From Candidatus Kerfeldbacteria bacterium RIFCSPHIGHO2_12_FULL_48_17 (GTDB taxonomy: Bacteria; Patescibacteriota; Patescibacteriia; HO2-48-17), in assembly GCA_001818775.1 (NCBI GenBank), contig MHKD01000019.1:47802-60763 (forward strand): a stretch of DNA of 12,962 bases. Direction: 5' to 3'. Below the pieces are notes generated by a model that saw only the letters and a list, made by a program, of their open reading frames with translations, ran no database searches and was not told the DNA's origin. Shown here piece by piece: positions 146-11,316 of the stretch (its first letter is position 1; the number at the start of each line of letters is the position of its first letter). The position numbers and the translations under genes were made by a program.

Positions 146-2311
146 ATGTTTCAAGAATATGGAGTACTCAATTACTATGACCACATGAATTTGGAGAGAA
201 CGGGAAAGCAGGTCGTGGGACCGGTACAGGGGCAAATGGAAGTGCTCACCGATCAGGTTTCGGGAATGACGGGTGATATGCAGACGGCAATGGAAAATGC
301 CAATGAGCAGATGAGGGATGCGATTTCGGACGTGATTGCTTCACAGGAACGGATTGCTGCTCAGAGACAGGAAATGTTTTTTGAGTTAACCAACATGTTG
401 GGGAGCATACAGGATTCTATAATTGGTGGTTTCACTGACATGCTGTCAGTCCTCGATGACATGAATGACAGTTTAGAGCAGCTCCTGGAAATTGCGCGGA
501 CACCCAATGAAACGGCTGCGATGGAACATTTCGTTCATGCAAGGGACAATTTTGACAAAAGTTTATATCCTGAAGCAATGAAGCGGATTGATTTTGCTAT
601 TTTTGGTGATGGCAGGCGTTGTTCCGGTCATCCGGAAGAATGGCGGTTTCACTACCTTCGTGGGCTTCTGTTTTCCGATCCTTTGGCTGGGTATAACGAT
701 AGTAAGCAGGCCGAAGCGTGTTTTCTGACGGCGGCTCGTTATGCCAAAGCGGATGATTACACAGAGGATGCGGGTATGCATATGCTGTCAGCTTCCTGGA
801 TGTCGTATGTCCAAAAAGATTTTATTCGCTCGGCGCAACAATGCAGCGAGGCTTTACAGTTGATCCCGGGATTTGCTGAGGCGTTGTATCATCAGGCAAA
901 ATTGCAGATAGAGATGGAGAAAGTTCCAGACGCTTTGCAATCGCTTGAAGCCTTGGTGAATGTATCCCCAAAGCATTTTCTCAAAGTCGCTGCTGATTCG
1001 GTGTTTGCTGCGAAATCGCTGGAACTCACGCCGTTTTTTGTGAAACTTCGCGACGAGAAAAAGCGGGTGCTGCGGAAAATAGTTTCAGAGGATCTTACTG
1101 AGGCGGAACTGTGGTTGAGTCGTGGTGTCGAAAATGATGCGAAACTTCAATACGTTATTTTTCTGCGTAATTTTTTGGAATGCACACCGAATGATCTGGT
1201 CACGTTGTTTGAACAGGAAGGAGACGTTGTTTTTTATGTTGTAGAATTAAGTAAAGACAACACTTGCTGGAAACGAGCATGGGAAATTTTGAAAATTTTT
1301 GAAGAGAAGATTCCAAATTTTACCAGGCAGCAGAAGGAAGGGTTGTTTTTAGAATTTTATGGCTGGTCTGACTTACCCGGCATGGTTCATCGGTTTTGCG
1401 AGGCGATGGTGAATTGTGGTATTAAGGAGATTGCATTGAGGGCTGAGAAGATTCGGGATACTGACTGGTGCACTCAAGAAATGCAACGTCTTATTTCTGA
1501 TCGGGAAAAAAGGCTAGAACAAAAGAGAAAGGAGCAAGAAAGACAGAAAAAAGAGGCGAATTTCGGAATCTTTGCTTGGTATTATAATTCTTTTTCCAAG
1601 AAAAATCATATTGTAGGAGATATAATTTACTCCTACAACAGCTGGTTTTTTTGGCTGCTGTTTTTCGACATGTTTTTGTGGGCCCTCTCTTTGGTAGCTC
1701 TGTGGTTTTACCTGCCATTTGTTAGTGTGGGATGGCGCATAGGTGCATATCTGACAGGTTTCGCCTGGGTTCTGTTTAATGCTATTTTATGGACCATTTT
1801 TCTTTTCAGTTTTGTTGTTGTTCGGAAAACTGAAGTGGCGCTCTTTAGAATTGGTGGAGTTGTTCAGAAATGGCCGGGTTTGGGGGAATCAATTTTTTGG
1901 AAAGCGCCAGGTGTTGGGGTGATAATCATCTCTGTGGCGCCAGTGGATTATATTTTTCCCAGTATCGAAGTTGAAGTTTCGTCGGGGAAAAAATTATGGT
2001 TCGATCAAGTCCACGTTACCAGCACTGTTTGCAAGCAGCGGGCTTATCTTCAAATGGAGATAGGTGACGAAGACCCGGTAAAATTTGCTCAAAAGCGGAT
2101 TGCTCTAAAGCTTCATGACGCAATCCAGAAATGGATTGCGGATAACATAAGGGAAAATGACGGGCAAAAAAATGAGGATTACAGGCAGATCCAACTGTGT
2201 AGAGAGGAAGTAAAGCTGGCTATGGAACAGGCAGCTGCTGCAGAGCTACGGAGCTATGGATTCGATATTCGGGTTATTTCACCAGGGAATATGCGCCTAT
2301 CTCCAAAGTAA
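146..2311 (+). CDS. Multidomain membrane protein: N-terminal soluble TPR-like/helical region, basic coiled-coil, 2-3 TM helices, C-terminal divergent SPFH/band-7-like domain
   Basis: ATG at 146 follows GAAGGAG (131-137) with an 8-nt spacer, opening a 721-aa ORF. Residues ~1-470 are hydrophilic and helical with TPR-like stretches (EALQLIPGFAEALYHQAKLQIEMEKVPDALQSLEALVNVSPKHF). A basic coiled coil DREKRLEQKRKEQERQKKE precedes the hydrophobic segments WFFWLLFFDMFLWALSLVALWFYLPF and AYLTGFAWVLFNAILWTIFLFSFVVV. The C-terminal ~170 aa align to the SPFH cores of the two downstream paralogs (GGVVQKW..GESIFW..VDYIFPSIEVEV..YLQME.., ending SYGFDIRVISPGNMRL versus QYGVLARVISLGDITL in the 4719 gene). Confidence 0.8.
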   Translation: MFQEYGVLNYYDHMNLERTGKQVVGPVQGQMEVLTDQVSGMTGDMQTAMENANEQMRDAISDVIASQERIAAQRQEMFFELTNMLGSIQDSIIGGFTDMLSVLDDMNDSLEQLLEIARTPNETAAMEHFVHARDNFDKSLYPEAMKRIDFAIFGDGRRCSGHPEEWRFHYLRGLLFSDPLAGYNDSKQAEACFLTAARYAKADDYTEDAGMHMLSASWMSYVQKDFIRSAQQCSEALQLIPGFAEALYHQAKLQIEMEKVPDALQSLEALVNVSPKHFLKVAADSVFAAKSLELTPFFVKLRDEKKRVLRKIVSEDLTEAELWLSRGVENDAKLQYVIFLRNFLECTPNDLVTLFEQEGDVVFYVVELSKDNTCWKRAWEILKIFEEKIPNFTRQQKEGLFLEFYGWSDLPGMVHRFCEAMVNCGIKEIALRAEKIRDTDWCTQEMQRLISDREKRLEQKRKEQERQKKEANFGIFAWYYNSFSKKNHIVGDIIYSYNSWFFWLLFFDMFLWALSLVALWFYLPFVSVGWRIGAYLTGFAWVLFNAILWTIFLFSFVVVRKTEVALFRIGGVVQKWPGLGESIFWKAPGVGVIIISVAPVDYIFPSIEVEVSSGKKLWFDQVHVTSTVCKQRAYLQMEIGDEDPVKFAQKRIALKLHDAIQKWIADNIRENDGQKNEDYRQIQLCREEVKLAMEQAAAAELRSYGFDIRVISPGNMRLSPK

Positions 2312-2359
2312 GCCATTTTTTAGACACGTATCCCAAATTTGAAAGTTGTTAAATTTACC

Positions 2360-2438
2360 CTAAGGAGGTGATTTTTCACTGCACATTCAAGAAACCTGAC
2401 GTATGTTTTATAACATATACTCAGGTTTTTTGTTTTTT
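2360..2438 (+). repeat. Copy A (degenerate) of a thrice-repeated operon-end element: perfect SD TAAGGAGGTGATT + intrinsic terminator
   Basis: TAAGGAGGTGATT at 2361-2373 is a 12-nt complement of the 16S 3' end. It is followed by cactgcacattcaagaaaCCTGAC...TCAGGttttttg, which shares flanks with the copies at 4462-4541 and 6969-7049. The ATG of the mini-ORF seen in those copies is absent here (cactGcac versus cactTATGcac). Confidence 0.6.
2395..2438 (+). terminator. Rho-independent terminator after the 721-aa gene
   Basis: Hairpin CCTGAC-GTATGTT-ttat-AACATATAC-TCAGG (2395-2425) followed by TTTTTTGTTTTTTG (2426-2439). Confidence 0.65.
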
Positions 2439-2482
2439 GTAAGCGGCTTTATATGCACGTAAGCAGCGGTAGCGAGGGTTTG

Positions 2483-2511
2483 TTGACTTTCTTGTGGATT
2501 TAGTATCTAAT
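2483..2511 (+). promoter_or_regulatory. Sigma-70-like promoter for the short-SPFH operon (TTGACT-17 nt-TCTAAT), paralogous to the promoter at 4573-4601
   Basis: TTGACT at 2483-2488 and TCTAAT at 2506-2511 are separated by a 17-nt spacer. The spacer-to-leader region aligns without gaps to 4573-4629, and the predicted TSS near 2518 starts the conserved leader cactttattggggtaattgtgcc (2517-2539). Confidence 0.5.
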
Positions 2512-2582
2512 GTAGGCACTTTATTGGGGTAATTGTGCCTTTAATAAAGCGTACTTCGACAATACAGAAAAAGGAGAAAGAC

Positions 2583-3227
2583 ATGAACAGAAGCTTTGCA
2601 CGCGGAGCGTTGATAACAGCCTTAATTTTCATTCCGGTGTTGGTGCTGGCTGCACTATTTATGGAGCAGTATTGGGCGGGTTCGGAATTTTTTCCGGGTT
2701 TGGACTTGGTTTTGTCCGGTTTGGCGTCGTTGGCCGTTCTCTTTGTCATTTTTGGTATAGTGGTGGTGCCCATCAATCATGTCGGCGTTATCGTTCTCAT
2801 GGGTCAGATTCAGAATTCGACACCCCTTCGTGAGGGTATATGCTGGGTACCGTTTTGGGCACAGGTGTTTTTTGAGTCGTTGGCGCCCAGAAAGGTGCAA
2901 ATTGACCCCATTGAATTCGAGTTTGAGGGGTCATTTTCCAAGCTTTCAAATATCCGCGTAGAGGTCAATGTGGATCCGGAGCGCGCGTTTCAATATTTCC
3001 GGCTTGATGAGAAAATTCGCGCCGAGCAGATAGATGCAAGGGTCTACAGTATTGCAAAGAAGACGCTGCAGCGCTTTATTGATGGTACTGATCGCCCCGG
3101 AACAAAAAGAAGAACCGTTCGGGAATTTAAGGCTGCCAGTGAAGACGCCAAGACTCGGCTTAATGAGGCTTTGAATGACGAGCTTTACGAGCATGGTGTC
3201 CAGGCTTGCGTTGTTTCTTTGGAGTAG
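2583..3227 (+). CDS. Short SPFH/band-7 (HflKC/flotillin-like) membrane protein, truncated relative to its paralog
   Basis: ATG 2583 follows AAGGAG (2571-2576) with a 6-nt spacer. The ORF track's GTG at 2535 has no SD. A short basic N-terminus is followed by two hydrophobic segments (ALITALIFIPVLVLAALF, LVLSGLASLAVLFVIFGIVVV). The core VPINHVGVIVLMGQIQN..EGICWVPFWAQV..IDPIEFEF..IRVEVNVDP..YFRLDE matches the band-7 pattern and aligns with the 4719 gene. It ends at HGVQACVVSLE*, where the paralog continues YGVLARVISLGDITLPDRIKQAIE. Confidence 0.75.
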   Translation: MNRSFARGALITALIFIPVLVLAALFMEQYWAGSEFFPGLDLVLSGLASLAVLFVIFGIVVVPINHVGVIVLMGQIQNSTPLREGICWVPFWAQVFFESLAPRKVQIDPIEFEFEGSFSKLSNIRVEVNVDPERAFQYFRLDEKIRAEQIDARVYSIAKKTLQRFIDGTDRPGTKRRTVREFKAASEDAKTRLNEALNDELYEHGVQACVVSLE

Positions 3228-3271
3228 CGTAGAACTTGATCATGTAACGGGAAAAAAGAAAGGAAATAGTT

Positions 3272-3892
3272 ATGTCGCAAAACAAATGGAAATATGGTGA
3301 TTTGCTCTTTGGGCAAGGGTGGTTGTCGGTCCTGGTGTGGGTGGTGTTGGTCCCTGTTTTTTGTTTTTTAGTCTCGGTTGCGATGGGGTATTTAGAGTAC
3401 CGCGATTGGGTCGCCACCAACCGTTTCCCGGAACCTGTTAAGGCGCCGATTGACCCAGCAGTGGTTGCTGAGCAGGTAAAGGAGGAAGCTAAACAAAGAG
3501 CCGAAAATCTTAAAAAAATCGAATCGCTGATCAAGCAGGCAGCGGCTTACGAGCGGCAGGCTAAGTACGCTGCAGGGGAAGAAAAGTTCTTCCTTTACCC
3601 TATTGTATGGAAGCATTGCCAGGGGCCTGTCTTAGGACCTGGTCTTTGGCATGTCATTATTTATAAGTGGGTATCAGACCGGCCATTCAAATTTGATCTT
3701 ACCAAGGGCCCGGCTGATGGCGAGGCTGAAGAATACACCAACTTCACCCTCGACACTATCGTAAAACCGGATGCCGGTCGCCAGATAGGTATTCCAGGCG
3801 GTTTTAGCGAGCCGGACTCGTTGTTTTTTTATCATTTAACAAATAAGGCACCGGGTCCATCTTGGGTGAGCGTGCCGCCGCAATGTCAATGA
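3272..3892 (+). CDS. Small membrane-anchored protein, paralog 1 of a conserved SPFH-associated family of unknown function
   Basis: ATG 3272 follows AAAGAAAGGAAA. It lies 44 nt downstream of the SPFH gene. The N-terminus MSQNKWKYGDLLFGQGWLSVLVWVVLVPVFCFLVSVAMGYL is a single TM anchor, followed by a charged helical linker. The C-terminal ~110 aa carry EEKFFLYPIVWKHCQGPVLGPGLWHVIIYKWV ... SLFFYHL..PGPSWVSVPPQCQ, shared with the ORFs at 3928 and 6352. Confidence 0.8.
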   Translation: MSQNKWKYGDLLFGQGWLSVLVWVVLVPVFCFLVSVAMGYLEYRDWVATNRFPEPVKAPIDPAVVAEQVKEEAKQRAENLKKIESLIKQAAAYERQAKYAAGEEKFFLYPIVWKHCQGPVLGPGLWHVIIYKWVSDRPFKFDLTKGPADGEAEEYTNFTLDTIVKPDAGRQIGIPGGFSEPDSLFFYHLTNKAPGPSWVSVPPQCQ

Positions 3893-3927
3893 GGGGTTTG
3901 TCAAAAAAAAATAGAAAGGAAAGTAGT

Positions 3928-4455
3928 ATGCCACAGAAGAAATGGAAGTATAGTGATTTGCTGTTTGGGCAAAGGTGGTTGTCGGTGGTGGCTTGGGTTG
4001 CGCTGGTGGTTTTTGGTTATTTGTTCCTGAGCCTGGTTGGCTCCTACATGATAAGTCGTGAAAACCGGGAAAAATCTGGCGAGATGGCAGCGACCATTGA
4101 TTCCAGTCAGAGGCAGAGGTTCGCGCCTGGCGAAGAGAAGTTTTTTAACTTCCCCTTTAGGTGGTATTCCTGTACTGGTGCCCATTTTGGGCCAGGCAGG
4201 TGGCATGTTGCCATCTATAAGTGGGTTTCGGCAGAGTCGATTTCTGCCTTCGAGCCTAAGGTATCAAAGAAAACCCATCTCAAATTGTATGTCGACAATA
4301 AGTTTCCACTCCTTGTCGACAACCGGGACGGGGTACTGCATCATATCCCACTTGGGCATGATGACCCAGATTCTTATTTTCTTTATGAAATAAAGAATTT
4401 GGGAAAGGACCCTGGTTGGGTTCAGCTCCCCCGGTCATGTCTCAAGGGGGATTAG
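3928..4455 (+). CDS. Small membrane-anchored protein, paralog 2 of the SPFH-associated family
   Basis: ATG 3928 follows GAAAGGAAAG (3914-3923). The TTG extension to 3862 in the ORF track has no SD and overlaps the previous stop. The N-terminus MPQKKWKYSDLLFGQRWLSVVAWVALVVFGYLFLSLVGSYM is a TM anchor. The C-terminus carries GEEKFFNFPFRWYSCTGAHFGPGRWHVAIYKWV ... SYFLYEIKNLGKDPGWVQLPRSC. Confidence 0.78.
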   Translation: MPQKKWKYSDLLFGQRWLSVVAWVALVVFGYLFLSLVGSYMISRENREKSGEMAATIDSSQRQRFAPGEEKFFNFPFRWYSCTGAHFGPGRWHVAIYKWVSAESISAFEPKVSKKTHLKLYVDNKFPLLVDNRDGVLHHIPLGHDDPDSYFLYEIKNLGKDPGWVQLPRSCLKGD

Positions 4456-4461
4456 CAAAAA

Positions 4462-4541
4462 CAAACAGAAAGGAGGTGATTCACTTATGCACATTTAAAA
4501 AAATCTGACAGCGTTTTACGAAGCGTCTGCTCAGATTTTTT
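4462..4541 (+). repeat. Copy B of the operon-end element: AAAGGAGGTGATT SD + mini-ORF ATG-CAC-ATT-TAA + intrinsic terminator
   Basis: caaacagaaAGGAGGTGAttcacttATGcacattTAAaaaaatctgacagcgttttacgaagcgtctgctcagattttttg. Roughly 95% identical to 6969-7049. SD at 4471-4479, with a 7-nt spacer to ATG 4487-4489 and stop at 4496-4498. Confidence 0.7.
4503..4541 (+). terminator. Rho-independent terminator ending the short-SPFH/partner operon
   Basis: Imperfect hairpin TCTGACAGCG-ttttacgaa-GCGTCTGCTCAGA followed by TTTTTTG (4535-4541). Confidence 0.65.
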
Positions 4542-4572
4542 GTTTATTTTTAGCCTTTTTTGGCGTTTTGTA

Positions 4573-4601
4573 TTGACTTTTTCTTTATTTTTCTGTATAA
4601 T
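4573..4601 (+). promoter_or_regulatory. Sigma-70-like promoter for the flotillin-like operon (TTGACT-17 nt-TATAAT)
   Basis: TTGACT at 4573-4578 and TATAAT at 4596-4601 (preceded by TG) are separated by a 17-nt spacer. The predicted TSS near 4608 starts the conserved leader cactttgttggggtaattgtgcc (4607-4629), leaving a leader of about 110 nt before ATG 4719. Confidence 0.6.
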
Positions 4602-4718
4602 ATAGCCACTTTGTTGGGGTAATTGTGCCGCAGCAAAGGGTTGTTTGACAACTTAAAATCAATAGAGGCCCACGCCGTGCGGCGGAGGAGCTGAATATAA
4701 AGAAAGGAGATTGATTTT

Positions 4719-6350
4719 ATGATTAAAATTAATCTTCATACAGAAAAGAGGAAGAAAATGAAAAAAAAGAACTCCGCCAAGGCCGAAACCCTGGGAGATT
4801 TTTTAAAGAGACTGTTTTTTGTTCTGCTGTGGGTGACAGGGTCGACGCTGGCTACTGTGCTTGTTTTCCTTCTTGTTAAGAAGGGATTAGTTTTTCTGCC
4901 AGAAGTTTCACTCCAAGATTTTTCGGGTGTCTGGTCTGTTCTGGGGATGGTGGGGCAGGGAGTTGCCTTGATAATTGGTGCCTTTGTTTTATTCGGTATA
5001 AGGCCCATACCCACCAATTATGTGGGGGTCACTACGCTTTTTGGAAAGATTCAAAACCGTGTCCTCCATGAAGGTATCAACTTGGTGTGGTTCTGGTATG
5101 ACTATCAGAAAGCCTCCACGGCGCCTCGGACTGTCAAGCTGGAACCGACGGAGTTTGAGTTTAGGGATGCACCTTCGAAGATTGCGGGGGTGCATATTCA
5201 GGTGCAGGTCAATCCAACTTGTCCGCAGGGTTACTTTCGTCTCACCGAGGAGACGCGGGAGACGGAAGTGGACGGGGCCGTGCGCAGTGTTGTGCAAAAA
5301 GTGCTGCAGAACCTGATTGACAATGCCGGGTCCCAGATGACCGTGGACGAGTTTAAGGGCGTCTCAGATAAAGTCACAAAGGAGCTGAGTAGAACGCTCA
5401 ACTCCCAAATTTCTCAGTATGGCGTCCTGGCGCGTGTTATTTCCCTTGGTGACATAACGTTGCCTGATAGAATCAAACAGGCAATTGAGTCGGTGAAGAC
5501 GCGTGAGAGGATGGCTGTGACTCTCAAGGCGCAGGAGGGTCATATTCGGAAGCTTGTTGAGGAGGGGCTTGATGCCAGGAGGATTCAACCGCCAGTCGAG
5601 GAAACTCCGGACCAGCTGCAAAAGCGGATAATTCCGTTGGTTCTTGAGAATCTTAAGGAGGCTGGGTATTTTCCCCCACTTCAGGAAACCCTAGAGCAGT
5701 TTGAGGCCCGTCTCAAATCTTTGGCATCGCAGCGCTTGAGGAACAGGGGAATTTCCGAGCCAACCAGAGAATCTGCAGAAGACCATAAAAAAAGGTTGGA
5801 AACAGATGTCCTGGCGACTTTGCAGCTGCAGGGTGTTGTGCGGCCCGTGGCTGAAGATCTGGCGACACGGGAAGCTCGTTTGGCCGGAATTGTCCGGGCC
5901 AGTTTTCTCATTTCTTCTACTGAGCCAGTGCCTCCAGCGGTCGCCAGTATTTTTTCTAAAGAAATGCAGACGCTGCGGCAGTTGGAAGAGCAGAAGTTCC
6001 TTGGCTATGCTGCCGCTTTTTCTAAGGAGCTGGAGCGACTTGAGGCTATTGACGCAGCAGTAGCCGACCGTTTTTATTCTGTTTTTGAGGAGGAAGTTGC
6101 GCGTTTGCGCAGTGCCCAGGAAAAGCAGATAAAAGATTTCAATGCCGCTTTTTCTAAGGAGCTGGGGGACCTAAAAGCAGAAGAACGGCGTCGCTATGAT
6201 GACGCCAAAAGAACTTATGATGAGCAGGTTGAGCGCTTGGAGGCTTCGTTCCAGCATGAGCAGGAAGAGGCTACCAAGCAGGAGTTGTATTCCAAAAATC
6301 CAAACTTCCTGTTGGGACTTGACCCCACAGGTAAAAAGAAAGGAAAATAA
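4719..6350 (+). CDS. Flotillin-like SPFH/band-7 membrane protein with long C-terminal coiled-coil carrying three FSKE(L/M) repeats
   Basis: ATG 4719 follows AAAGGAG (4703-4709) with a 9-nt spacer. An alternative ATG at 4758 follows GAGG. The basic N-terminus and hydrophobic segments (LFFVLLWVTGSTLATVLVFLLV, VWSVLGMVGQGVALIIGAFVLFGI) lead into the SPFH core NYVGVTTLFGKIQNRVLHEGINLVWFW..LEPTEFEF..IQVQVNP..YFRLTEE..QYGVLARVISLGDITLPDRIKQAIESVKTRERMA, which resembles HflK/HflC and flotillin. An E/A/R/Q-rich coiled coil follows, with ASIFSKEMQ, AAAFSKELERLEA and NAAFSKELGDLKA repeats. Confidence 0.85.
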   Translation: MIKINLHTEKRKKMKKKNSAKAETLGDFLKRLFFVLLWVTGSTLATVLVFLLVKKGLVFLPEVSLQDFSGVWSVLGMVGQGVALIIGAFVLFGIRPIPTNYVGVTTLFGKIQNRVLHEGINLVWFWYDYQKASTAPRTVKLEPTEFEFRDAPSKIAGVHIQVQVNPTCPQGYFRLTEETRETEVDGAVRSVVQKVLQNLIDNAGSQMTVDEFKGVSDKVTKELSRTLNSQISQYGVLARVISLGDITLPDRIKQAIESVKTRERMAVTLKAQEGHIRKLVEEGLDARRIQPPVEETPDQLQKRIIPLVLENLKEAGYFPPLQETLEQFEARLKSLASQRLRNRGISEPTRESAEDHKKRLETDVLATLQLQGVVRPVAEDLATREARLAGIVRASFLISSTEPVPPAVASIFSKEMQTLRQLEEQKFLGYAAAFSKELERLEAIDAAVADRFYSVFEEEVARLRSAQEKQIKDFNAAFSKELGDLKAEERRRYDDAKRTYDEQVERLEASFQHEQEEATKQELYSKNPNFLLGLDPTGKKKGK

Positions 6351-6351
6351 A

Positions 6352-6954
6352 ATGTATGATCTTTTGTTCAAATCGGGGATTGTGTCGGTGGGGGCGTGGA
6401 TTGCTCTGGTTGTTCTGGTGTATTTGGCCCTCAGTCTGACGGGATCATGTGTAAGGAGTTGCGAGATGCGGGCACAGCAGGACCCGAATACTTCTTATCC
6501 CACTCCTGTCACGACCGAGGAGCAGGTCAAGCGGGCCGAGAAGCTGGCCGCGCACCAGGCGGAAATTCTGAAAACGTTGCCGCAGACTATTGAAGAAGCG
6601 GCATCGTATCCCCGAAGCCAGGATTATCCGGCCCAGGAGAAATTGTTCCTCCTTTACCCCTTCAAGTGGGATCATTGCTGGGGGCCGCTCTTGGGCCCGG
6701 GGGTGTGGCACGTCGTAATTTATAAGTGGAAGGCTGCCGGGTCCCTGCAGATGGAAGATTTGAAGGAAGGGCCCGCTGTTGAAGATTACGAGCTTGTCTC
6801 CAACTTCCGGGTCAACACGGTGGTTGATAAGCGTGAGGGCAAGCAGGTGATTGTACCGGAGGGGTGGAAAGACAAAAACGCTCTTTATTTTTTTCAGCTG
6901 GAGCGCATAAGTGACTCGCTCGGCTGGGTCAGCGTTCCCCCTCAATGCCGCTGA
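6352..6954 (+). CDS. Small membrane-anchored protein, paralog 3 of the SPFH-associated family
   Basis: ATG 6352 follows AAGAAAGGAAA and sits 1 nt after the flotillin-like TAA (6348-6350), which suggests translational coupling. The N-terminus MYDLLFKSGIVSVGAWIALVVLVYLALSLTG is a TM anchor. The C-terminus carries QEKLFLLYPFKWDHCWGPLLGPGVWHVVIYKWK ... ALYFFQLERISDSLGWVSVPPQCR. The ORF-track extension to 6196 lies inside the upstream gene and has no SD. Confidence 0.8.
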   Translation: MYDLLFKSGIVSVGAWIALVVLVYLALSLTGSCVRSCEMRAQQDPNTSYPTPVTTEEQVKRAEKLAAHQAEILKTLPQTIEEAASYPRSQDYPAQEKLFLLYPFKWDHCWGPLLGPGVWHVVIYKWKAAGSLQMEDLKEGPAVEDYELVSNFRVNTVVDKREGKQVIVPEGWKDKNALYFFQLERISDSLGWVSVPPQCR

Positions 6955-6968
6955 GAGAGAGGCAAAAA

Positions 6969-7049
6969 TAAACAGAAAGGAGGTGATTCACTTATGCACA
7001 TTTAAAAAAACCTGACAGCGCTTTACGAAGCGTCTGCTCAGGTTTTTTT
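6969..7049 (+). repeat. Copy C of the operon-end element (SD + MHI mini-ORF + terminator)
   Basis: aaacagaaAGGAGGTGAttcacttATGcacattTAAaaaaacctgacagcgctttacgaagcgtctgctcaggttttttt. SD at 6978-6986, ATG 6994-6996, TAA 7003-7005. Confidence 0.7.
7011..7049 (+). terminator. Rho-independent terminator ending the flotillin-like/partner operon
   Basis: CCTGACAGCGC-tttacgaa-GCGTCTGCTCAGG hairpin followed by TTTTTTT (7043-7049). Confidence 0.65.
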
Positions 7050-7109: not shown

Positions 7110-10100
7110 ATGCTCAAAAGATATTTATCGTCAGTCTTCGCGGCGGTCATCATCGGCCTGATCGCGCTGCTGCCCCAGGTCACCCTCGCCACATTTGGCG
7201 ACACCACTACCTACGTCGGTAAAATCATCGGCGGTGACGGCAAGGACAAACTCAGCGCGTACCTCGACCAATCGGCTGATTTTGCCGTTGACAGCTCCGG
7301 TAATTTTTATCTGGCTGACACGCGCAACAACGTCATCCGCAAAATTTCATCGAGCGGCACCGTTTCCACCGTGGCCGGTACGGGTGCGTATGGCGATGTC
7401 ACCGGCAACAAAAGCGACGCTAAATTCGCTGGCCCGGAAGCACTGGCCCTCGACGGCAGCACCATCTTCGTGGCCGACACCGGCAACAACACCATCAAGA
7501 AAATTTCCGGCAGCACCGTCAGTACCCTGGTCAGCTCCGGCCTCAGCGGCCCCAAAGGCCTGTATGCCGACACATCGGCTGACATTCTCTACATCGCCGA
7601 CACCGGCAACAATAAAATCAAGAAAGTCGCTTTTGGAGGCGGCAGCGTCAGCACCGTGGCCAGCGGCCTCAACGCGCCCACCAAATTCACGAAAAATGGC
7701 GGCACCCTTTATGTGAATAACACCGGTGACAGCAAAATCAAATCGGTTGTCATTTCCAGCGGCGCAGTGGCGACTGTGGCCAGTGATTTTCTCGATCTCG
7801 GCGGCATAACGTACCACGAAGGTCACCTCTACAGTGTTGATGGTGATGGTCTGTTTGATTATCTGCAGAGCATTGATCCATCCACCGGTGCCAAATCTTT
7901 GCTGGCTGAAGACGGTTCCATGATTACCCTTAATACTTCTTCACAGGTCCTGGTGTATAACAGTAAGATTTACGTCCTCAACCGCGGCTCGAGCAGTATT
8001 TATAGATTTGACCTTGACGGCTCAAATCCTGTTCATTTTGCTGGCAAAGACCGTTTTGGCAATGATAACGGCACCGGAACCAACGCGCTCATCGGCGCTC
8101 CCAAAGATATCGTCATTTCCGATGATCGCGCCTTTATGTATCTGGCGGAAAACAACAAGATTCGCAAAATCACCCTAGACAGTGGCAAAGTTGAATCACT
8201 CATCGGCAATGCCGTGGATAATTACAAAGAAGGCAGAACCGGTTCGGACGGGCGTTTCAGTGATATCACCTCCATTGCCGTTTCACCGGATGGCGCCACA
8301 CTCTACGTCACTGATCGCAACAACAACCGTGTCCGCGGGATAGATATTGCTGCCAAAATTGATTTTCTTATTTCCGGCGCCGGAGAAATCAATTCCCACG
8401 GTGAATCCGATAACGGCTACCAGGAAGGTACCAAGTGTTTGGCTGAGTTTGACGCTGGTGTTTCCGGTTGCGCGTATTTCAATCGTCCCACGGGTATTGC
8501 GATTTCATCGGATGGGAAGTTTCTCTACGTCACCGATACGGGCAATCACCGCATCCGCCGCGTGCGCGTGAGTGATGGGCAAACGACACTTATCGCCGGT
8601 TCAGGTGCTGCGGGTTTCACCAATGGCGTCGGTTCGGCGGCAAAATTCAATTCACCGTACAGTGTCACCATCGACGCGGCCGGTGATTTCCTGTATGTCG
8701 CTGACAAGGGCAATCACGCCATCCGTAAAATTGACCTGGCAACCCGTGAAGTCACCACCCTTACGGGCACCGGTTCCTTTGGCTATAATGATGCCACCTT
8801 TGATAAGGCGGTGTTTTCTTTCCCCGAGTACATTGAATTCGGTGGCGATGGTCACCTGTATGTTTCGGAAGTCGGCAGTCAGCGTATTCGCCAGCTTGAT
8901 CTGGAAAACGAAGTGACGAAGCTTGTGGCCGGTTCCGGTGATCGTGGTTTTCTGAACGGCAACCGCAGTGATGCGGAGTTTAATAACCCCAAGGGCATGG
9001 CTGTTGATGCGCCGTCAGACACTATTTATGTTACCGATAACCAAAATGATCTTATCCGTAAAATGGACATTGAGGGTGAAGCGCCATTCACCGAACTCTC
9101 ACCGACCGTGACCCGTGTTGATCCCAATACCAAAACCCTCGCTGACCGCGGCGATCAGACAATTCCCATTGATCTGTACGGTTCGAATATTCGTCATGGC
9201 GCCATAGCCTATGTCGGCGCGTTTCAGGCATTGAAAACATATGTCACTGATTATGGCGCGGTGCTGGAGTTGCCGTTTGGCTTGCTTGATCCGGGGCATT
9301 ATGACATTACCGTGAAGAATATCGATTCACAGTCGTACACCTTGCTGAAAGGTTTTCGCGTGACACGGAAAGACGGTGTATTGCCCGGTACCTATTATAA
9401 ATATGATGGGTCGGTGGTTGGTGGCGACGGCGTGGCTCCGTTAAGCGCTAACTTTTTTCCGTATGATTCGGCTCTGCGCGGCGGGTTTAACAGTTCCACG
9501 TGTGATGTGAATAAAGACGGGGTTGATGAAATCATTGTGGGTACGGGTGTGGGTTTTGGTCCACAGGTCAAGGTCTTTACCAAGTCAGGGGATTTGCTGT
9601 TCAGCTTTTTTGGCTTTGCGGAGACGTTACGCGCTGGTGTGCGTACTTCGTGCGGTGACCTTGACAAGGACGGTAAACCGGAAATTGTGGTGACGGCCGG
9701 ACCCGGAGGCAGACCGCATGTGCGTATTTTTGACAACGAAGGCAATCTCAAGCATCCGGGTTGGTTTGCGCTGGATGGAAAGTTCAAGGGCGGAACGTAT
9801 ACCACGATTGGCGATGTGAACGGCGATAAGGTTGGTGATATTATTGTCAGCGCCGGCAAGGGCGGCGGGCCCCACATTACCGTTCACAGGATGGACGGTC
9901 GGTTGCTGGCCACATTCTTTGCCTACAGCAACACATTCCGTGCCGGTATTCAGCCGGTGGCGATGGATTTTGATAATGACGGTCGGGATGAAATTGTGGT
10001 GGTGCCCGATACCGGTACATCGCATGTGCAGACATTCAGCATTCAGCCGAATGATATCAGGTTGTTGAATCCCGGTTTCTTCGCCTTTGGCACGACTGAC

Positions 10101-10364
10101 GCCAATGGTTTCAATATTGCCGGCGGTGACATTGATGGTGACGGCAAAGATGAGATCATTGTGGGTACCGGTCCGAACAATATAGCGCGCGTGCGTGTCT
10201 TTAACAAAGATGGTTCGGTGATACTCAAAGATGAGCAGGTGTTTTCAAGTTCGTATAAGGGGGGAGTGAACGTCTCGGCCGGGGATGTTGATGGGGACGG
10301 TGACGATGACATTATTGTTTTGCCGCGTTCCAGCGGAGTTCCTGATCTGCGGGTTCTGAAGTAA
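7110..10364 (+). CDS. Secreted 1084-aa NHL-repeat beta-propeller / IPT(TIG) / FG-GAP-repeat protein
   Basis: Signal peptide MLKRYLSSVFAAVIIGLIALLPQVTLATFG. At least 8 NHL-type blades (YLADTRNNVIRKI, FVADTGNNTIKKI, YIADTGNNKIKKV, YVTDRNNNRVRGI, YVTDTGNHRIRRV, YVADKGNHAIRKI, YVSEVGSQRIRQL, YVTDNQNDLIRKM). An Ig-like IPT segment (TVTRVDPNTKT...YDITVKNIDSQSYTLLKGFRVT). Six FG-GAP/VCBS repeats (CDVNKDGVDEIIVGTG..PQVKVF, GDLDKDGKPEIVVTAGPGGRPHVRIF, GDVNGDKVGDIIVSAGKGGGPHITVH, MDFDNDGRDEIVVVPDTGTSHVQTF, GDIDGDGKDEIIVGTGPNNIARVRVF, GDVDGDGDDDIIVLPRS). Codon usage is strongly biased toward C-ending codons. Confidence 0.85.
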   Translation: MLKRYLSSVFAAVIIGLIALLPQVTLATFGDTTTYVGKIIGGDGKDKLSAYLDQSADFAVDSSGNFYLADTRNNVIRKISSSGTVSTVAGTGAYGDVTGNKSDAKFAGPEALALDGSTIFVADTGNNTIKKISGSTVSTLVSSGLSGPKGLYADTSADILYIADTGNNKIKKVAFGGGSVSTVASGLNAPTKFTKNGGTLYVNNTGDSKIKSVVISSGAVATVASDFLDLGGITYHEGHLYSVDGDGLFDYLQSIDPSTGAKSLLAEDGSMITLNTSSQVLVYNSKIYVLNRGSSSIYRFDLDGSNPVHFAGKDRFGNDNGTGTNALIGAPKDIVISDDRAFMYLAENNKIRKITLDSGKVESLIGNAVDNYKEGRTGSDGRFSDITSIAVSPDGATLYVTDRNNNRVRGIDIAAKIDFLISGAGEINSHGESDNGYQEGTKCLAEFDAGVSGCAYFNRPTGIAISSDGKFLYVTDTGNHRIRRVRVSDGQTTLIAGSGAAGFTNGVGSAAKFNSPYSVTIDAAGDFLYVADKGNHAIRKIDLATREVTTLTGTGSFGYNDATFDKAVFSFPEYIEFGGDGHLYVSEVGSQRIRQLDLENEVTKLVAGSGDRGFLNGNRSDAEFNNPKGMAVDAPSDTIYVTDNQNDLIRKMDIEGEAPFTELSPTVTRVDPNTKTLADRGDQTIPIDLYGSNIRHGAIAYVGAFQALKTYVTDYGAVLELPFGLLDPGHYDITVKNIDSQSYTLLKGFRVTRKDGVLPGTYYKYDGSVVGGDGVAPLSANFFPYDSALRGGFNSSTCDVNKDGVDEIIVGTGVGFGPQVKVFTKSGDLLFSFFGFAETLRAGVRTSCGDLDKDGKPEIVVTAGPGGRPHVRIFDNEGNLKHPGWFALDGKFKGGTYTTIGDVNGDKVGDIIVSAGKGGGPHITVHRMDGRLLATFFAYSNTFRAGIQPVAMDFDNDGRDEIVVVPDTGTSHVQTFSIQPNDIRLLNPGFFAFGTTDANGFNIAGGDIDGDGKDEIIVGTGPNNIARVRVFNKDGSVILKDEQVFSSSYKGGVNVSAGDVDGDGDDDIIVLPRSSGVPDLRVLK

Positions 10365-10731: not shown

Positions 10732-11316
10732 TTATTTTTTAACGCAGCGATTGTTTCGGCACAGACAACTGGGTATGGCATCCTTTTCCTGCTGTGTGCA
10801 AATGGCGTTGCACGATACACGGTTTATCTGGCTGTATACTTCTTCATTCAGACAGGAATAGCCGCAGCTGCAGTTGCTGAAAAGGGGCGTGCAGTCAGCG
10901 TCGGTCTCACAGCTGAGGGCGGATGGGGTTTTATTTCCTCCTGTGTCAGTTTGAGTATTTACGTTTTGATTGGCGCTGTTTTCGGTTTCTGTGCCGCTCG
11001 ATGCATCTATACTAGCACCGTTCACGTTTTTTGTTAAGCTGCTCTCGGTCTTTTGCGGGTTGATGGGTTTTTTTGTCGAGATAATGCCGCTCATCACAAT
11101 CACAAGCTCTAAACACAGAAAAACGAAAACAAGAACGAACCCAAGTGCCAGATTGATGGCTTTGGCGTATCTATTTTTATCAGGATTTCCCTGTGCTGTT
11201 TTTTTTCGACCGCGTTTTGTTTTTTTGCCCGTGTTGTTATGGCTTTTTACCATACCTTTTATTTTCGTTGTTATTGTACCATTATATTTCTCCTTGTTCA
11301 ATTTTTTGTTTTCCAT
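10732..11316 (-). CDS. Lysine-rich N-terminus / single-TM / Ser-Thr-Asn-rich linker / 12-cysteine C-terminal domain protein, unknown function
   Basis: 194-aa ORF. The N-terminus (KKTKRGRKKTAQGNPDKNRYAK) is strongly basic, followed by the TM segment AINLALGFVLVFVFLCLELVIVMSGII and a low-complexity linker (TESSLTKNVNGASIDASSGTETENSANQNVNTQTDTGGNKT). The C-terminus is SCETDADCTPLFSNCSCGYSCLNEEVYSQINRVSCNAICTQQEKDAIPSCLCRNNRCVKK. The start is uncertain: M1 overlaps the PduO gene by 35 nt, and an alternative M22 (ATG 11251-11253) does not. No SD precedes either. Confidence 0.55.
   Translation of the reverse strand: MENKKLNKEKYNGTITTKIKGMVKSHNNTGKKTKRGRKKTAQGNPDKNRYAKAINLALGFVLVFVFLCLELVIVMSGIISTKKPINPQKTESSLTKNVNGASIDASSGTETENSANQNVNTQTDTGGNKTPSALSCETDADCTPLFSNCSCGYSCLNEEVYSQINRVSCNAICTQQEKDAIPSCLCRNNRCVKK

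What the first reader, a model, noticed from the sequence alone, without database searches (positions are those of the whole stretch)
3272..4455. Candidate novel SPFH-partner protein family (three paralogs: 3272-3892, 3928-4455, 6352-6954) with conserved W-HV-IYKW and GWV-P-C motifs and two invariant cysteines
All three share several features. Each has a K/W-rich short N-terminus and one long hydrophobic anchor, then a charged helical linker. The C-terminal ~110-aa domain has invariant features: E(E)KFF--P--W--C-G---GPG-WHV-IYKW, then an aromatic-rich stretch (LFFYHL / YFLYEI / LYFFQL), then PGWV-(V/L)P--C near the C-terminus. Nucleotide identity between copies is also high (compare 3595-3672 with 6652-6730). 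The domain does not resemble the OB-fold of NfeD/YuaF, the usual SPFH operon partner. The two invariant Cys, one in W-HC-GP and one in the C-terminal PPQC, could form a disulfide, which would imply an extracytoplasmic domain. This is positionally the cognate partner of the SPFH proteins and may be an undescribed family.
Basis: partly seen in the sequence, partly recalled or inferred. Interest (0 to 1): 0.7.

Follow-up and report, generated by a model that had tools for sequence, protein, structure and literature searches.

The report
Orphan membrane proteins paired with SPFH genes
Three related small membrane proteins of a groundwater candidate-phylum bacterium (Kerfeldbacteria) form a real family with no known relatives, always sit just after SPFH membrane-scaffold genes, and were duplicated together with them. 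The family is confined to a few closely related uncultured genomes, so it is a modest local novelty.

Summary
Genes A (3272-3892), B (3928-4455) and C (6352-6954) encode paralogs that are 35-40% identical (BLASTP 6e-46). Each has one transmembrane helix and a ~115-aa C-terminal domain carrying the motifs described and two invariant cysteines.

No Pfam, NCBIfam, PHROG, PADLOC or PDB sequence match exists. An exhaustive HMMER scan of 1.84 billion representatives found only the family itself, all from Kerfeldbacteria-like contigs.

Linkage to SPFH genes is real but narrow:
- SPFH2 is followed by A and B, and SPFH3 by C.
- The window holds a tandem duplication of a whole unit: terminator, promoter, leader, SPFH gene, partner.
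- Three related contigs keep an SPFH gene directly upstream of a partner gene.

dN/dS is about 0.1.

Best reading: a lineage-specific, non-NfeD partner or client of SPFH scaffolds. It is probably anchored N-in, with a disulfide-stabilised domain outside the cell. Topology, disulfide and physical interaction remain untested.

The parts
3272..3892 (+). Paralog A, 206 aa. It has the N-terminal motif MSQNKWKYGDLLF, a TM helix at about residues 17-41, a Pro-rich and charged helical linker, and a C-terminal beta domain (nt 3539-3889).
   Evidence: ORF. Family alignment. Hydropathy. AF2 model of the domain has pLDDT 80.9 and pTM 0.76 and is all-beta.
3928..4455 (+). Paralog B, 175 aa. It has the same N-terminal motif and TM helix, almost no linker, and a C-terminal beta domain (nt 4090-4452).
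   Evidence: A ribosome-binding site supports the start at 3928. The full-length AF2 model has pLDDT 72.9, with helix 8-13, TM helix 16-52 and a beta domain at 62-166.
6352..6954 (+). Paralog C, 200 aa. It has a short N-terminus (MYDLLF), a TM helix, a linker, and a C-terminal beta domain (nt 6598-6951). It starts 1 nt after the SPFH3 stop codon.
   Evidence: It is identical to P0001, annotated 'hypothetical protein A3F54_05065, Candidatus Kerfeldbacteria bacterium RIFCSPHIGHO2_12_FULL'.
2583..3227 (+). SPFH2, 214 aa. It has two TM segments and then a Band_7/SPFH domain, with no coiled-coil tail. It lies 44 nt upstream of A.
   Evidence: Pfam PF01145 at 7.5e-10. TM segments. It is 38% identical to SPFH3, E 6e-37.
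4758..6350 (+). SPFH3, 530 aa (an alternative start is at 4719). It has a basic N-terminus, two TM segments, a Band_7/SPFH domain and a long helical tail. It lies directly upstream of C.
   Evidence: Pfam PF01145 at 2.4e-20. Also.
146..2311 (+). SPFH1, 721 aa. It has a ~470-aa N-terminal region with weak TPR matches, then hydrophobic segments, then a diverged SPFH-like C-terminal domain (nt 1736-2311).
   Evidence: BLASTP against SPFH2 gives 25% identity over 177 aa, E 1e-7. Pfam Band_7 was not detected; there are only weak TPR hits.
2483..2539 (+). Promoter-like site (TTGACT-N17-TCTAAT) plus a conserved leader with the inverted repeat GGCAC...GTGCC, upstream of SPFH2.
   Evidence: Direct repeat D6, 77% identical to 4573-4629. 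Alignment.
4573..4629 (+). Second copy of the promoter-like site (TTGACT-N17-TATAAT, 11 of 12 matches) plus the same leader, upstream of SPFH3.
   Evidence: The matching stretch on L011 is 85% identical.
4455..4541 (+). 87-nt intergenic element directly after B. It consists of a Shine-Dalgarno-like box, the mini-ORF ATG CAC ATT TAA, and a hairpin followed by a T-run (terminator-like).
   Evidence: 95% identical to 6962-7048 (D2). Fold energy -20.6 kcal/mol.
6962..7048 (+). Second copy of the 87-nt terminator-like element, directly after C. It closes the second SPFH+partner unit.
   Evidence: D2. Fold energy -26.9 kcal/mol, z -4.5. It is also present after P0004 on L006 at 86% identity.
2351..2440 (+). 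Diverged third copy of the terminator-like element, after SPFH1. It marks the start of the first duplicated unit.
   Evidence: D5 and D10. Fold energy -26.7 kcal/mol, z -4.5. The inner stem has a different sequence but remains paired.

Best explanation
A, B and C belong to a lineage-specific family of single-pass membrane proteins. Each has a short conserved juxtamembrane N-terminus, one TM helix, a variable linker, and a ~115-aa jelly-roll beta-sandwich domain.

Shown:
- The genes are co-located with SPFH scaffold genes and were duplicated together with them.

Inferred:
- They are dedicated partners or clients of the SPFH assemblies. They fill the genomic niche that NfeD fills elsewhere, but they are not homologous to NfeD.

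Proposed topology and mechanism (inferred):
- The N-terminus is in the cytoplasm and the beta domain is outside the cell, stabilised by a disulfide between the two invariant cysteines.
- The SPFH domains lie on the cytoplasmic face, because each follows two TM segments and a basic N-terminus.
- SPFH oligomers would therefore corral the partners through their TM helices and the conserved N-terminal D-L-L-F segment. This would cluster the external domains into membrane patches.
For: Family reality and constraint:
- The paralogs are 35-40% identical, E 6e-46.
- dN/dS is about 0.1 and the C-terminal domain is the most constrained part.

Orphan status:
- No hits.
- The exhaustive HMMER search found only the family itself.

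Fold:
- Two AF2 models agree on strand order.

Coupling to SPFH:
- SPFH2 to A is a 44-nt gap, A to B 35 nt, and SPFH3 to C 1 nt.
- Terminator-like hairpins occur only after SPFH1, B and C.
- The units 2351-4454 and 4455-6961 share terminator, promoter and leader.
- SPFH followed by a partner is kept on L006, L007 and L011, which are 71-90% identical in nucleotides to the window.
- The window holds three SPFH genes and three partner genes.

Topology:
- The net-charge bias favours N-in for A, B and P0005. It is neutral for C and P0006 and opposite for P0004.
- SPFH2, SPFH3 and P0011 each have two uncharged stretches of 20 or more residues after a basic N-terminus.
- The organism encodes a DsbA-like protein 3.4 kb upstream (L001 1891-2676) and a Cys-rich membrane-anchored protein in the window. 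Extracytoplasmic disulfides are therefore plausible.
Against: - The family is known from only about four closely related genomes or strains. Conserved adjacency could therefore reflect shared ancestry rather than function.
- There is no evidence of interaction.
- The charge rule is weak, and P0004 points the other way.
- The distance between the two cysteines in the model could not be measured.
- If the SPFH domains are cytoplasmic and the beta domains external, the two conserved domains cannot touch. That is unlike the NfeD OB-fold, which binds flotillin in the cytoplasm (PMC11222466).
- The AF2 models rest on a 6-sequence alignment.
Confidence: 0.55

Rival explanations
1. Same family and same SPFH coupling, but the opposite topology (N-out/C-in). 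The jelly-roll domain would be cytoplasmic and would dock directly on the cytoplasmic SPFH domains. This would make it a true functional analogue of the NfeD OB-fold. The invariant Cys, His and Cys would then form a metal site in a cupin-like fold rather than a disulfide.
For: - The SPFH domains are predicted to be cytoplasmic, and NfeD binds flotillin on that side (PMC11222466).
- K+R counts are slightly higher C-terminal of the TM helix in 4 of 6 members.
- H127 is invariant along with C116 and C205.
- The short N-tails (7-16 residues) are compatible with N-tail translocation.
Against: - The N-tails of A, B, P0005 and P0006 carry 2-4 Lys/Arg, which disfavours translocation.
- The net-charge difference favours N-in in three members and N-out in only one.
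- The two classical cupin metal motifs are absent on inspection. Only one His is invariant.
- No cupin Pfam model matches, even at E<=10.
Confidence: 0.2
2. The adjacency to SPFH genes is historical rather than functional. On this view the family consists of independent surface-exposed ligand-binding or adhesin-like proteins of an episymbiotic CPR bacterium. They happened to lie beside an SPFH gene when the segment was tandemly duplicated.
For: - All examples come from one narrow clade.
- The locus is fluid. Paralog order is swapped on L007, and the 5' ends are homogenised between copies.
- A large NHL/FG-GAP surface protein lies next door and is conserved on L006.
- The jelly-roll hits include carbohydrate-binding modules.
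Against: - Gaps of 1-44 nt, with terminator-like hairpins only at unit ends, argue for co-transcription.
- Adjacency survives although the SPFH proteins have diverged to 36-61% identity and the partners to 48-70%.
- The partner is retained in every unit despite rearrangement.
Confidence: 0.2
3. The proteins are extremely diverged NfeD homologs.
For: - They share an operon with SPFH genes.
- They are membrane-anchored proteins with an all-beta C-terminal domain, which is the general NfeD plan described in PMC2636767.
Against: - There is no NfeD Pfam hit at E<=10.
- hhalign against E. coli YbbJ gives a probability of 0.1%.
- They have one TM helix instead of 3-6.
- The gene lies downstream of the SPFH gene, not upstream.
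Confidence: 0.03

Closest known systems
NfeD / YuaF / YbbJ / YqiJ (PF01957), the classical SPFH operon partner
   Same: - It is a small membrane-anchored protein with an all-beta C-terminal domain.
- It is encoded in the same operon as an SPFH/Band_7 gene and co-evolves with it (PMC2636767, PMC11222466).
   Different: - There is no sequence relationship.
- This family has one TM helix, against 3-6 in NfeD.
- The predicted fold is a jelly-roll sandwich, not a five-stranded OB barrel.
- The gene lies after the SPFH gene, not before it.
- The soluble domain is probably external, whereas that of NfeD is cytosolic.
SamG/SamH (YdjG/YdjH) with the SPFH protein SamI (YdjI) of Bacillus subtilis
   Same: These are non-NfeD integral membrane proteins. 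They are encoded in one operon with an SPFH protein and act as its membrane partners (bioRxiv 10.64898/2026.02.06.704340; PMC8581546).
   Different: - The partner proteins match no curated family.
- In B. subtilis the SPFH protein is soluble and is recruited by its partners. Here the SPFH proteins have their own two TM segments.
- No pspA-like gene was noted among the called genes and their Pfam labels on L001.
HflK/C-FtsH type client corralling by SPFH cages
   Same: This is the proposed mechanism. An SPFH oligomer encloses the TM anchors of a client whose main domain lies on the other side of the membrane. This rests on established knowledge of HflK/C-FtsH and is summarised in PMC12624060 and PMC13086221.
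   Different: - The client here is a small non-enzymatic beta-sandwich protein, not a protease.
- The sides of the membrane are inverted: SPFH cytoplasmic, client domain external.
- There is no experimental support.
Jelly-roll / double-stranded beta-helix domains (cupins, PirA, GOLD domain of p24/SEC14L2)
   Same: - Foldseek gives probabilities up to 0.99 but TM-scores of 0.45 or less.
- p24 proteins share the overall plan of GOLD sandwich, helical linker, single TM helix and short tail.
   Different: - The cupin metal motifs are absent.
- The domain order is reversed relative to p24.

Membership tests
NfeD (PF01957) | Sequence match to the NfeD profile or to a bona fide member | tested here: not met
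   There is no Pfam hit at E<=0.1 for the full proteins or at E<=10 for the domains. hhalign of the family profile against E. coli YbbJ gives probability 0.1%.
NfeD (PF01957) | C-terminal five-stranded OB-fold beta-barrel (PMC4208085, PMC11222466) | tested here: not met
   [not shown]
NfeD (PF01957) | Multi-pass N-terminal membrane region (3 to 6 TM segments) | tested here: not met
   Every member has a single uncharged stretch of 24-33 residues. AF2 predicts a single helix at 16-52.
NfeD (PF01957) | Same operon as an SPFH/Band_7 gene | tested here: met
   Gaps are 44, 35 and 1 nt, and terminator-like hairpins occur only at unit ends. The gene order is SPFH first, unlike typical nfeD-SPFH operons.
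NfeD (PF01957) | Soluble domain is cytosolic and binds the SPFH protein | not testable with these tools
   The charge bias leans weakly towards an external domain. No multimer prediction or experiment was possible.
SPFH / Band_7 (the neighbouring genes, not the finding itself) | Match to PF01145 above the gathering score | tested here: met
   SPFH2 scores 39.6 bits and SPFH3 73.7 bits, against a cut-off of 23.6. SPFH1 is linked only by BLASTP to SPFH2, E 1e-7.
Cupin superfamily | Double-stranded beta-helix fold with a significant structural match | tested here: inconclusive
   [not shown]
Cupin superfamily | The two cupin sequence motifs with their His/Glu metal ligands, or a cupin Pfam match | tested here: not met
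   There is no Pfam hit at E<=10. Only one His (H127) is invariant. The motif definitions come from general knowledge.
New family proposed here | One TM helix plus a C-terminal domain with E-x-x-F...P..W..C.G...GPG.WHV.I(Y/F).W ... WV..P..C | tested here: met
   This is present in A, B, C, P0004 and P0006. P0005 is truncated and carries only the first half.

The most novel reading that the evidence does not exclude
A previously unseen type of SPFH partnership that works across the membrane. Cytoplasmic SPFH rings would capture the TM helix and the conserved N-terminal D-L-L-F segment of small proteins. The disulfide-locked jelly-roll domains of these proteins would thereby be clustered on the outer face of a CPR cell. 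This could build attachment or sensing patches for its episymbiotic lifestyle, next to a giant NHL/FG-GAP surface protein. The partner genes would act as a recombining, variable cassette.
Probability: 0.15. Interest if true: 0.6.

Novelty: new variant of a known kind. Interest (0 to 1): 0.35.

Why it matters
SPFH scaffolds are universal, but their bacterial partners are known mainly as NfeD. For most SPFH subfamilies no partner is known (PMC2636767).

This locus offers a clean genetic case of a non-homologous partner family that was duplicated in step with its SPFH genes. That supports the idea that SPFH proteins recruit lineage-specific clients.

The value is limited. The family is restricted to a few uncultivated Kerfeldbacteria-like genomes, nothing about interaction or function is demonstrated, and lineage-specific hypothetical membrane proteins are common in CPR genomes.

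Tried and rejected
- Word-index homolog search with the family profile found only 6 clusters, three of them the window's own proteins.
- Exhaustive HMMER found nothing beyond the family. Two weak hits were short beta-strand matches to unrelated repeat proteins and were judged spurious: an animal Ig-repeat protein with 7 stretches and a VCBS-type adhesin.
- Pattern scans with the partner domain found nothing in GTDB species genomes, JGI metagenomes or IMG/VR.
- Pattern scans with the SPFH domain found nothing in GTDB species genomes or JGI metagenomes.
- One alignment was too diverged for pattern design.
- The full-length SPFH3 search was swamped by coiled-coil words and returned only itself.
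- The SPFH-domain profile search returned only P0010 (a strain variant) and P0011. I therefore could not ask what sits downstream of more distant SPFH relatives.
- tblastn against phage and plasmid collections found nothing.
- The AFDB Foldseek library was unavailable.
- Rfam found nothing in the window.
- Weak ZorA, HerA and GajB PADLOC hits on neighbouring genes are coiled-coil noise, all at E>0.002.
- The Cys-Cys distance could not be measured because model coordinates are not exposed.

Full report
OBSERVATION

The window holds seven co-directional genes on the + strand between 146 and 10364.
- A: 3272-3892, 206 aa.
- B: 3928-4455, 175 aa.
- C: 6352-6954, 200 aa.

They align end to end at 35-40% identity. 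BLASTP of A against C gives 6e-46.

The motifs quoted are present: E(E)KFF..P..W..C.G...GPG.WHV.IYKW, an aromatic strand, and WV.(V/L)P..C. The two cysteines (C116 and C205 in A) occur in every full-length member.

Each protein has one long uncharged hydrophobic stretch.

- C lacks the K/W-rich N-terminus. The common N-terminal motif is D-L-L-F.
- B lacks about 35 residues of the linker.
- The 'high' nucleotide identity is 70-72% over 44-94 nt. That is no more than the protein conservation implies.
- The start at 3928 for B is preferable to the gene callers' 3889. It carries the same GAAAGGAAA box as A and C and yields the shared N-terminus.

THE FAMILY IS REAL, CONSTRAINED AND ORPHAN

The window is identical to part of a 100-kb metagenomic contig. 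Proteins B and C carry the NCBI label 'hypothetical protein, Candidatus Kerfeldbacteria bacterium RIFCSPHIGHO2_12_FULL'.

Homologs outside this genome are few:
- P0004: 59% identical to A.
- P0005: 70% identical to A, truncated.
- P0006: 48% identical to B.

Against these, dN/dS is about 0.1. The C-terminal domain is the most constrained part, with pN 0.14 against 0.51 in the TM region.

Nothing matches in any of these:
- Pfam, even at E<=10 for the domains.
- NCBIfam, PADLOC and PHROGs.
- PDB sequences.
- Phage and plasmid records.

A profile of the C-terminal domain was run with HMMER against 1.84 billion cluster representatives. It recovered only the family, plus two short spurious matches to repeat proteins. 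Pattern scans of GTDB species genomes, JGI metagenomes and IMG/VR found nothing.

The family is therefore confined to a few closely related organisms.

STRUCTURE

An AF2 model of the A domain has pLDDT 80.9 and pTM 0.76, and it is all-beta. A full-length model of B (pLDDT 72.9) shows these elements:
- a short helix over Y-S-D-L-L-F;
- one long TM helix;
- a low-confidence connector;
- the same order of strands as in the A domain.

- a designed double-stranded beta-helix;
- cupins, including the CENP-C cupin;
- PirA;
- the GlfT2 N-terminal sandwich;
- alpha-2-macroglobulin MG domains;
- GOLD domains;
- small viral capsid jelly-rolls.

Foldseek against the PDB gives no hit at E<=1e-3, and TM-scores are 0.45 or less.

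The domain is a generic jelly-roll-type sandwich with no specific relative. It is not the five-stranded OB barrel of NfeD. hhalign against E. coli YbbJ gives 0.1% probability.

CONTEXT

Two neighbours are SPFH/Band_7 proteins by Pfam:
- SPFH2: 2583-3227.
- SPFH3: 4758-6350.

The 721-aa product of 146-2311 ends in a diverged SPFH-like domain, 25% identical to SPFH2 with E 1e-7. That makes three SPFH genes and three partner genes.

Gaps between genes:
- SPFH2 to A: 44 nt.
- A to B: 35 nt.
- SPFH3 to C: 1 nt.

Strong hairpin-plus-T-run elements occur only after SPFH1, after B and after C. Two of the copies are 95% identical over 87 nt. The third keeps the stem through different bases.

Each of the SPFH2 and SPFH3 units is preceded by the same promoter-like site and the same leader, GGCAC-N15-GTGCC.

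The window therefore contains a tandem duplication of a complete unit: terminator, promoter, leader, SPFH gene, partner or partners. The two copies are 2351-4454 and 4455-6961. The SPFH gene and its partner were copied together.

RELATED CONTIGS

- L006 is 78% identical in nucleotides over the neighbouring NHL gene. It reads: short SPFH gene, then P0004 overlapping its stop, then the same terminator element, then the NHL gene.
- L011 carries an SPFH2 ortholog (61% identical) followed by a gene starting MSQNRW.
- L007, L008 and L009 begin with the last codons of SPFH2 and the intergenic spacer. They then carry a B-like gene followed by an A-like gene, which is the reverse of the window's order.

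An SPFH gene followed by a partner gene is kept wherever it can be read, although the partner cassette itself is rearranged. All of this comes from one narrow clade. It is therefore consistent evidence, not a strong statistical test.

TOPOLOGY AND MECHANISM (INFERRED)

SPFH2, SPFH3 and P0011 each have a basic N-terminus followed by two hydrophobic stretches of 20 or more residues. The second directly precedes the Band_7 domain. This places the SPFH domains in the cytoplasm, as in flotillins.

For the partners, the net charge of the N-flank minus the C-flank gives a weak lean to N-in/C-out:
- +2 for A.
- +4 for B.
- +2 for P0005.
- 0 for C.
- 0 for P0006.
- -2 for P0004.

The following fit an external, disulfide-stabilised domain:
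- Two invariant cysteines in an otherwise Cys-poor domain.
- A DsbA-like gene 3.4 kb upstream.
- A Cys-rich anchored protein in the window.
- The adjacent secreted NHL/FG-GAP protein.

My preferred model is that cytoplasmic SPFH oligomers hold the partners by their TM helices and the conserved N-terminal segment, and so cluster the external jelly-roll domains. HflK/C-FtsH is a precedent for an SPFH assembly corralling a client whose main domain lies across the membrane.

The main rival keeps the coupling but flips the topology. It puts the jelly-roll in the cytoplasm as an NfeD-like docking domain with a Cys/His metal site. A second rival treats the adjacency as historical.

I could not measure the Cys-Cys distance, run a topology predictor or model complexes. 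These points remain open.

COMPARISON WITH KNOWN SYSTEMS

NfeD is the classical SPFH operon partner. It has 3-6 TM segments and a cytosolic OB domain that binds flotillin, and it is usually the upstream gene (PMC2636767, PMC4208085, PMC11222466).

This family shares only two things with NfeD: the operon logic and the general plan of a membrane anchor followed by a beta domain. The sequence, fold and TM-number tests all fail.

Non-NfeD partners are already known in principle, for example SamG/SamH with SamI in B. subtilis (bioRxiv 10.64898/2026.02.06.704340). For SPFH subfamilies 3, 4 and 6-12 no NfeD was found (PMC2636767).

VERDICT

This is a genuine, previously undescribed family that is not NfeD and is genetically tied to SPFH genes. 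It is restricted to a handful of related uncultivated genomes. Its topology, disulfide and interaction are untested.
- It is a new variant of a known kind, namely an SPFH-plus-partner operon.
- Interest is moderate to low, at 0.35.

Noticed in passing
window 4455-4541 and 6962-7048; diverged copy at about 2351-2440; also L006 1192-1275: An 87-nt intergenic element is 95% identical between two copies, far above the 35-40% identity of the flanking proteins. It consists of a perfect Shine-Dalgarno-like box AAGGAGGTGAT, a three-codon mini-ORF (ATG CAC ATT TAA), and a terminator-like hairpin with a T-run. The third copy keeps the stem through different bases. There is no Rfam match.
   Followed up: partly
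window 2483-2539 and 4573-4629; L011 1-93: A promoter-like site (TTGACT-N17-TATAAT/TCTAAT) is followed by a conserved leader with the inverted repeat GGCAC-N15-GTGCC. It occurs before both SPFH2 and SPFH3 and is 85% conserved on a contig that is otherwise about 71% identical. It could be an operator or a 5' UTR hairpin.
   Followed up: partly
window 3252-3369 vs 3908-4025; L007 1-1071; L010 about 1240-1449: The 5' ends of A and B (RBS plus the first ~30 codons) are 76% identical, more than the rest of the genes. On L007 the order is B-like then A-like, and the B-like gene carries A's N-terminus. The 99%-identical strain variant L010 has B-like N-terminal codons on the A gene and a stop as codon 2. 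This suggests recombination or gene conversion among the paralogs.
   Followed up: partly
L007 612-1064: P0005 (A-like) ends at an in-frame stop after 150 aa and so lacks the second half of the beta domain. The stop is 7 nt from the contig end, so either an assembly artefact or a pseudogene is possible.
   Followed up: no
window 146-2311: This 721-aa protein fuses a ~470-aa N-terminal region (weak TPR matches, no signal peptide) to hydrophobic segments and a diverged SPFH-like domain that Pfam does not detect. This is an unusual SPFH architecture.
   Followed up: partly
window 6011-6033 and 6143-6165: An exact 23-nt direct repeat lies inside the helical tail of SPFH3. It corresponds to a repeated AAFSKEL...L.A peptide, so it is an internal duplication in the tail.
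   Followed up: no
window 4758-6350: SPFH3 matches phrog_200, a phage protein family labelled 'lipoprotein', at E 1.8e-23. SPFH2 matches it at 4.9e-5. Relatives of this SPFH subfamily therefore occur in phage genomes.
   Followed up: no
window 10732-11316 (- strand): This 194-aa protein has a very basic N-terminus, one TM segment, and a C-terminal region with 10 of its 11 cysteines in about 60 residues. It has no meaningful family match (only sub-threshold NCBIfam hits, E 0.013 or weaker). It is probably an external disulfide-rich domain.
   Followed up: no
window 7110-10364; L006 1354-1905: This 1084-aa protein has an N-terminal hydrophobic signal or anchor, NHL repeats and FG-GAP repeats. 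It follows the last SPFH+partner unit both in the window and on L006 (87% aa identity). It is separated from that unit by the terminator-like element.
   Followed up: partly
L001 1891-3618 (upstream of the window): A DsbA/thioredoxin-like gene and lgt (prolipoprotein diacylglyceryl transferase) lie immediately upstream of the SPFH cluster. These are envelope-biogenesis genes next to the locus.
   Followed up: no
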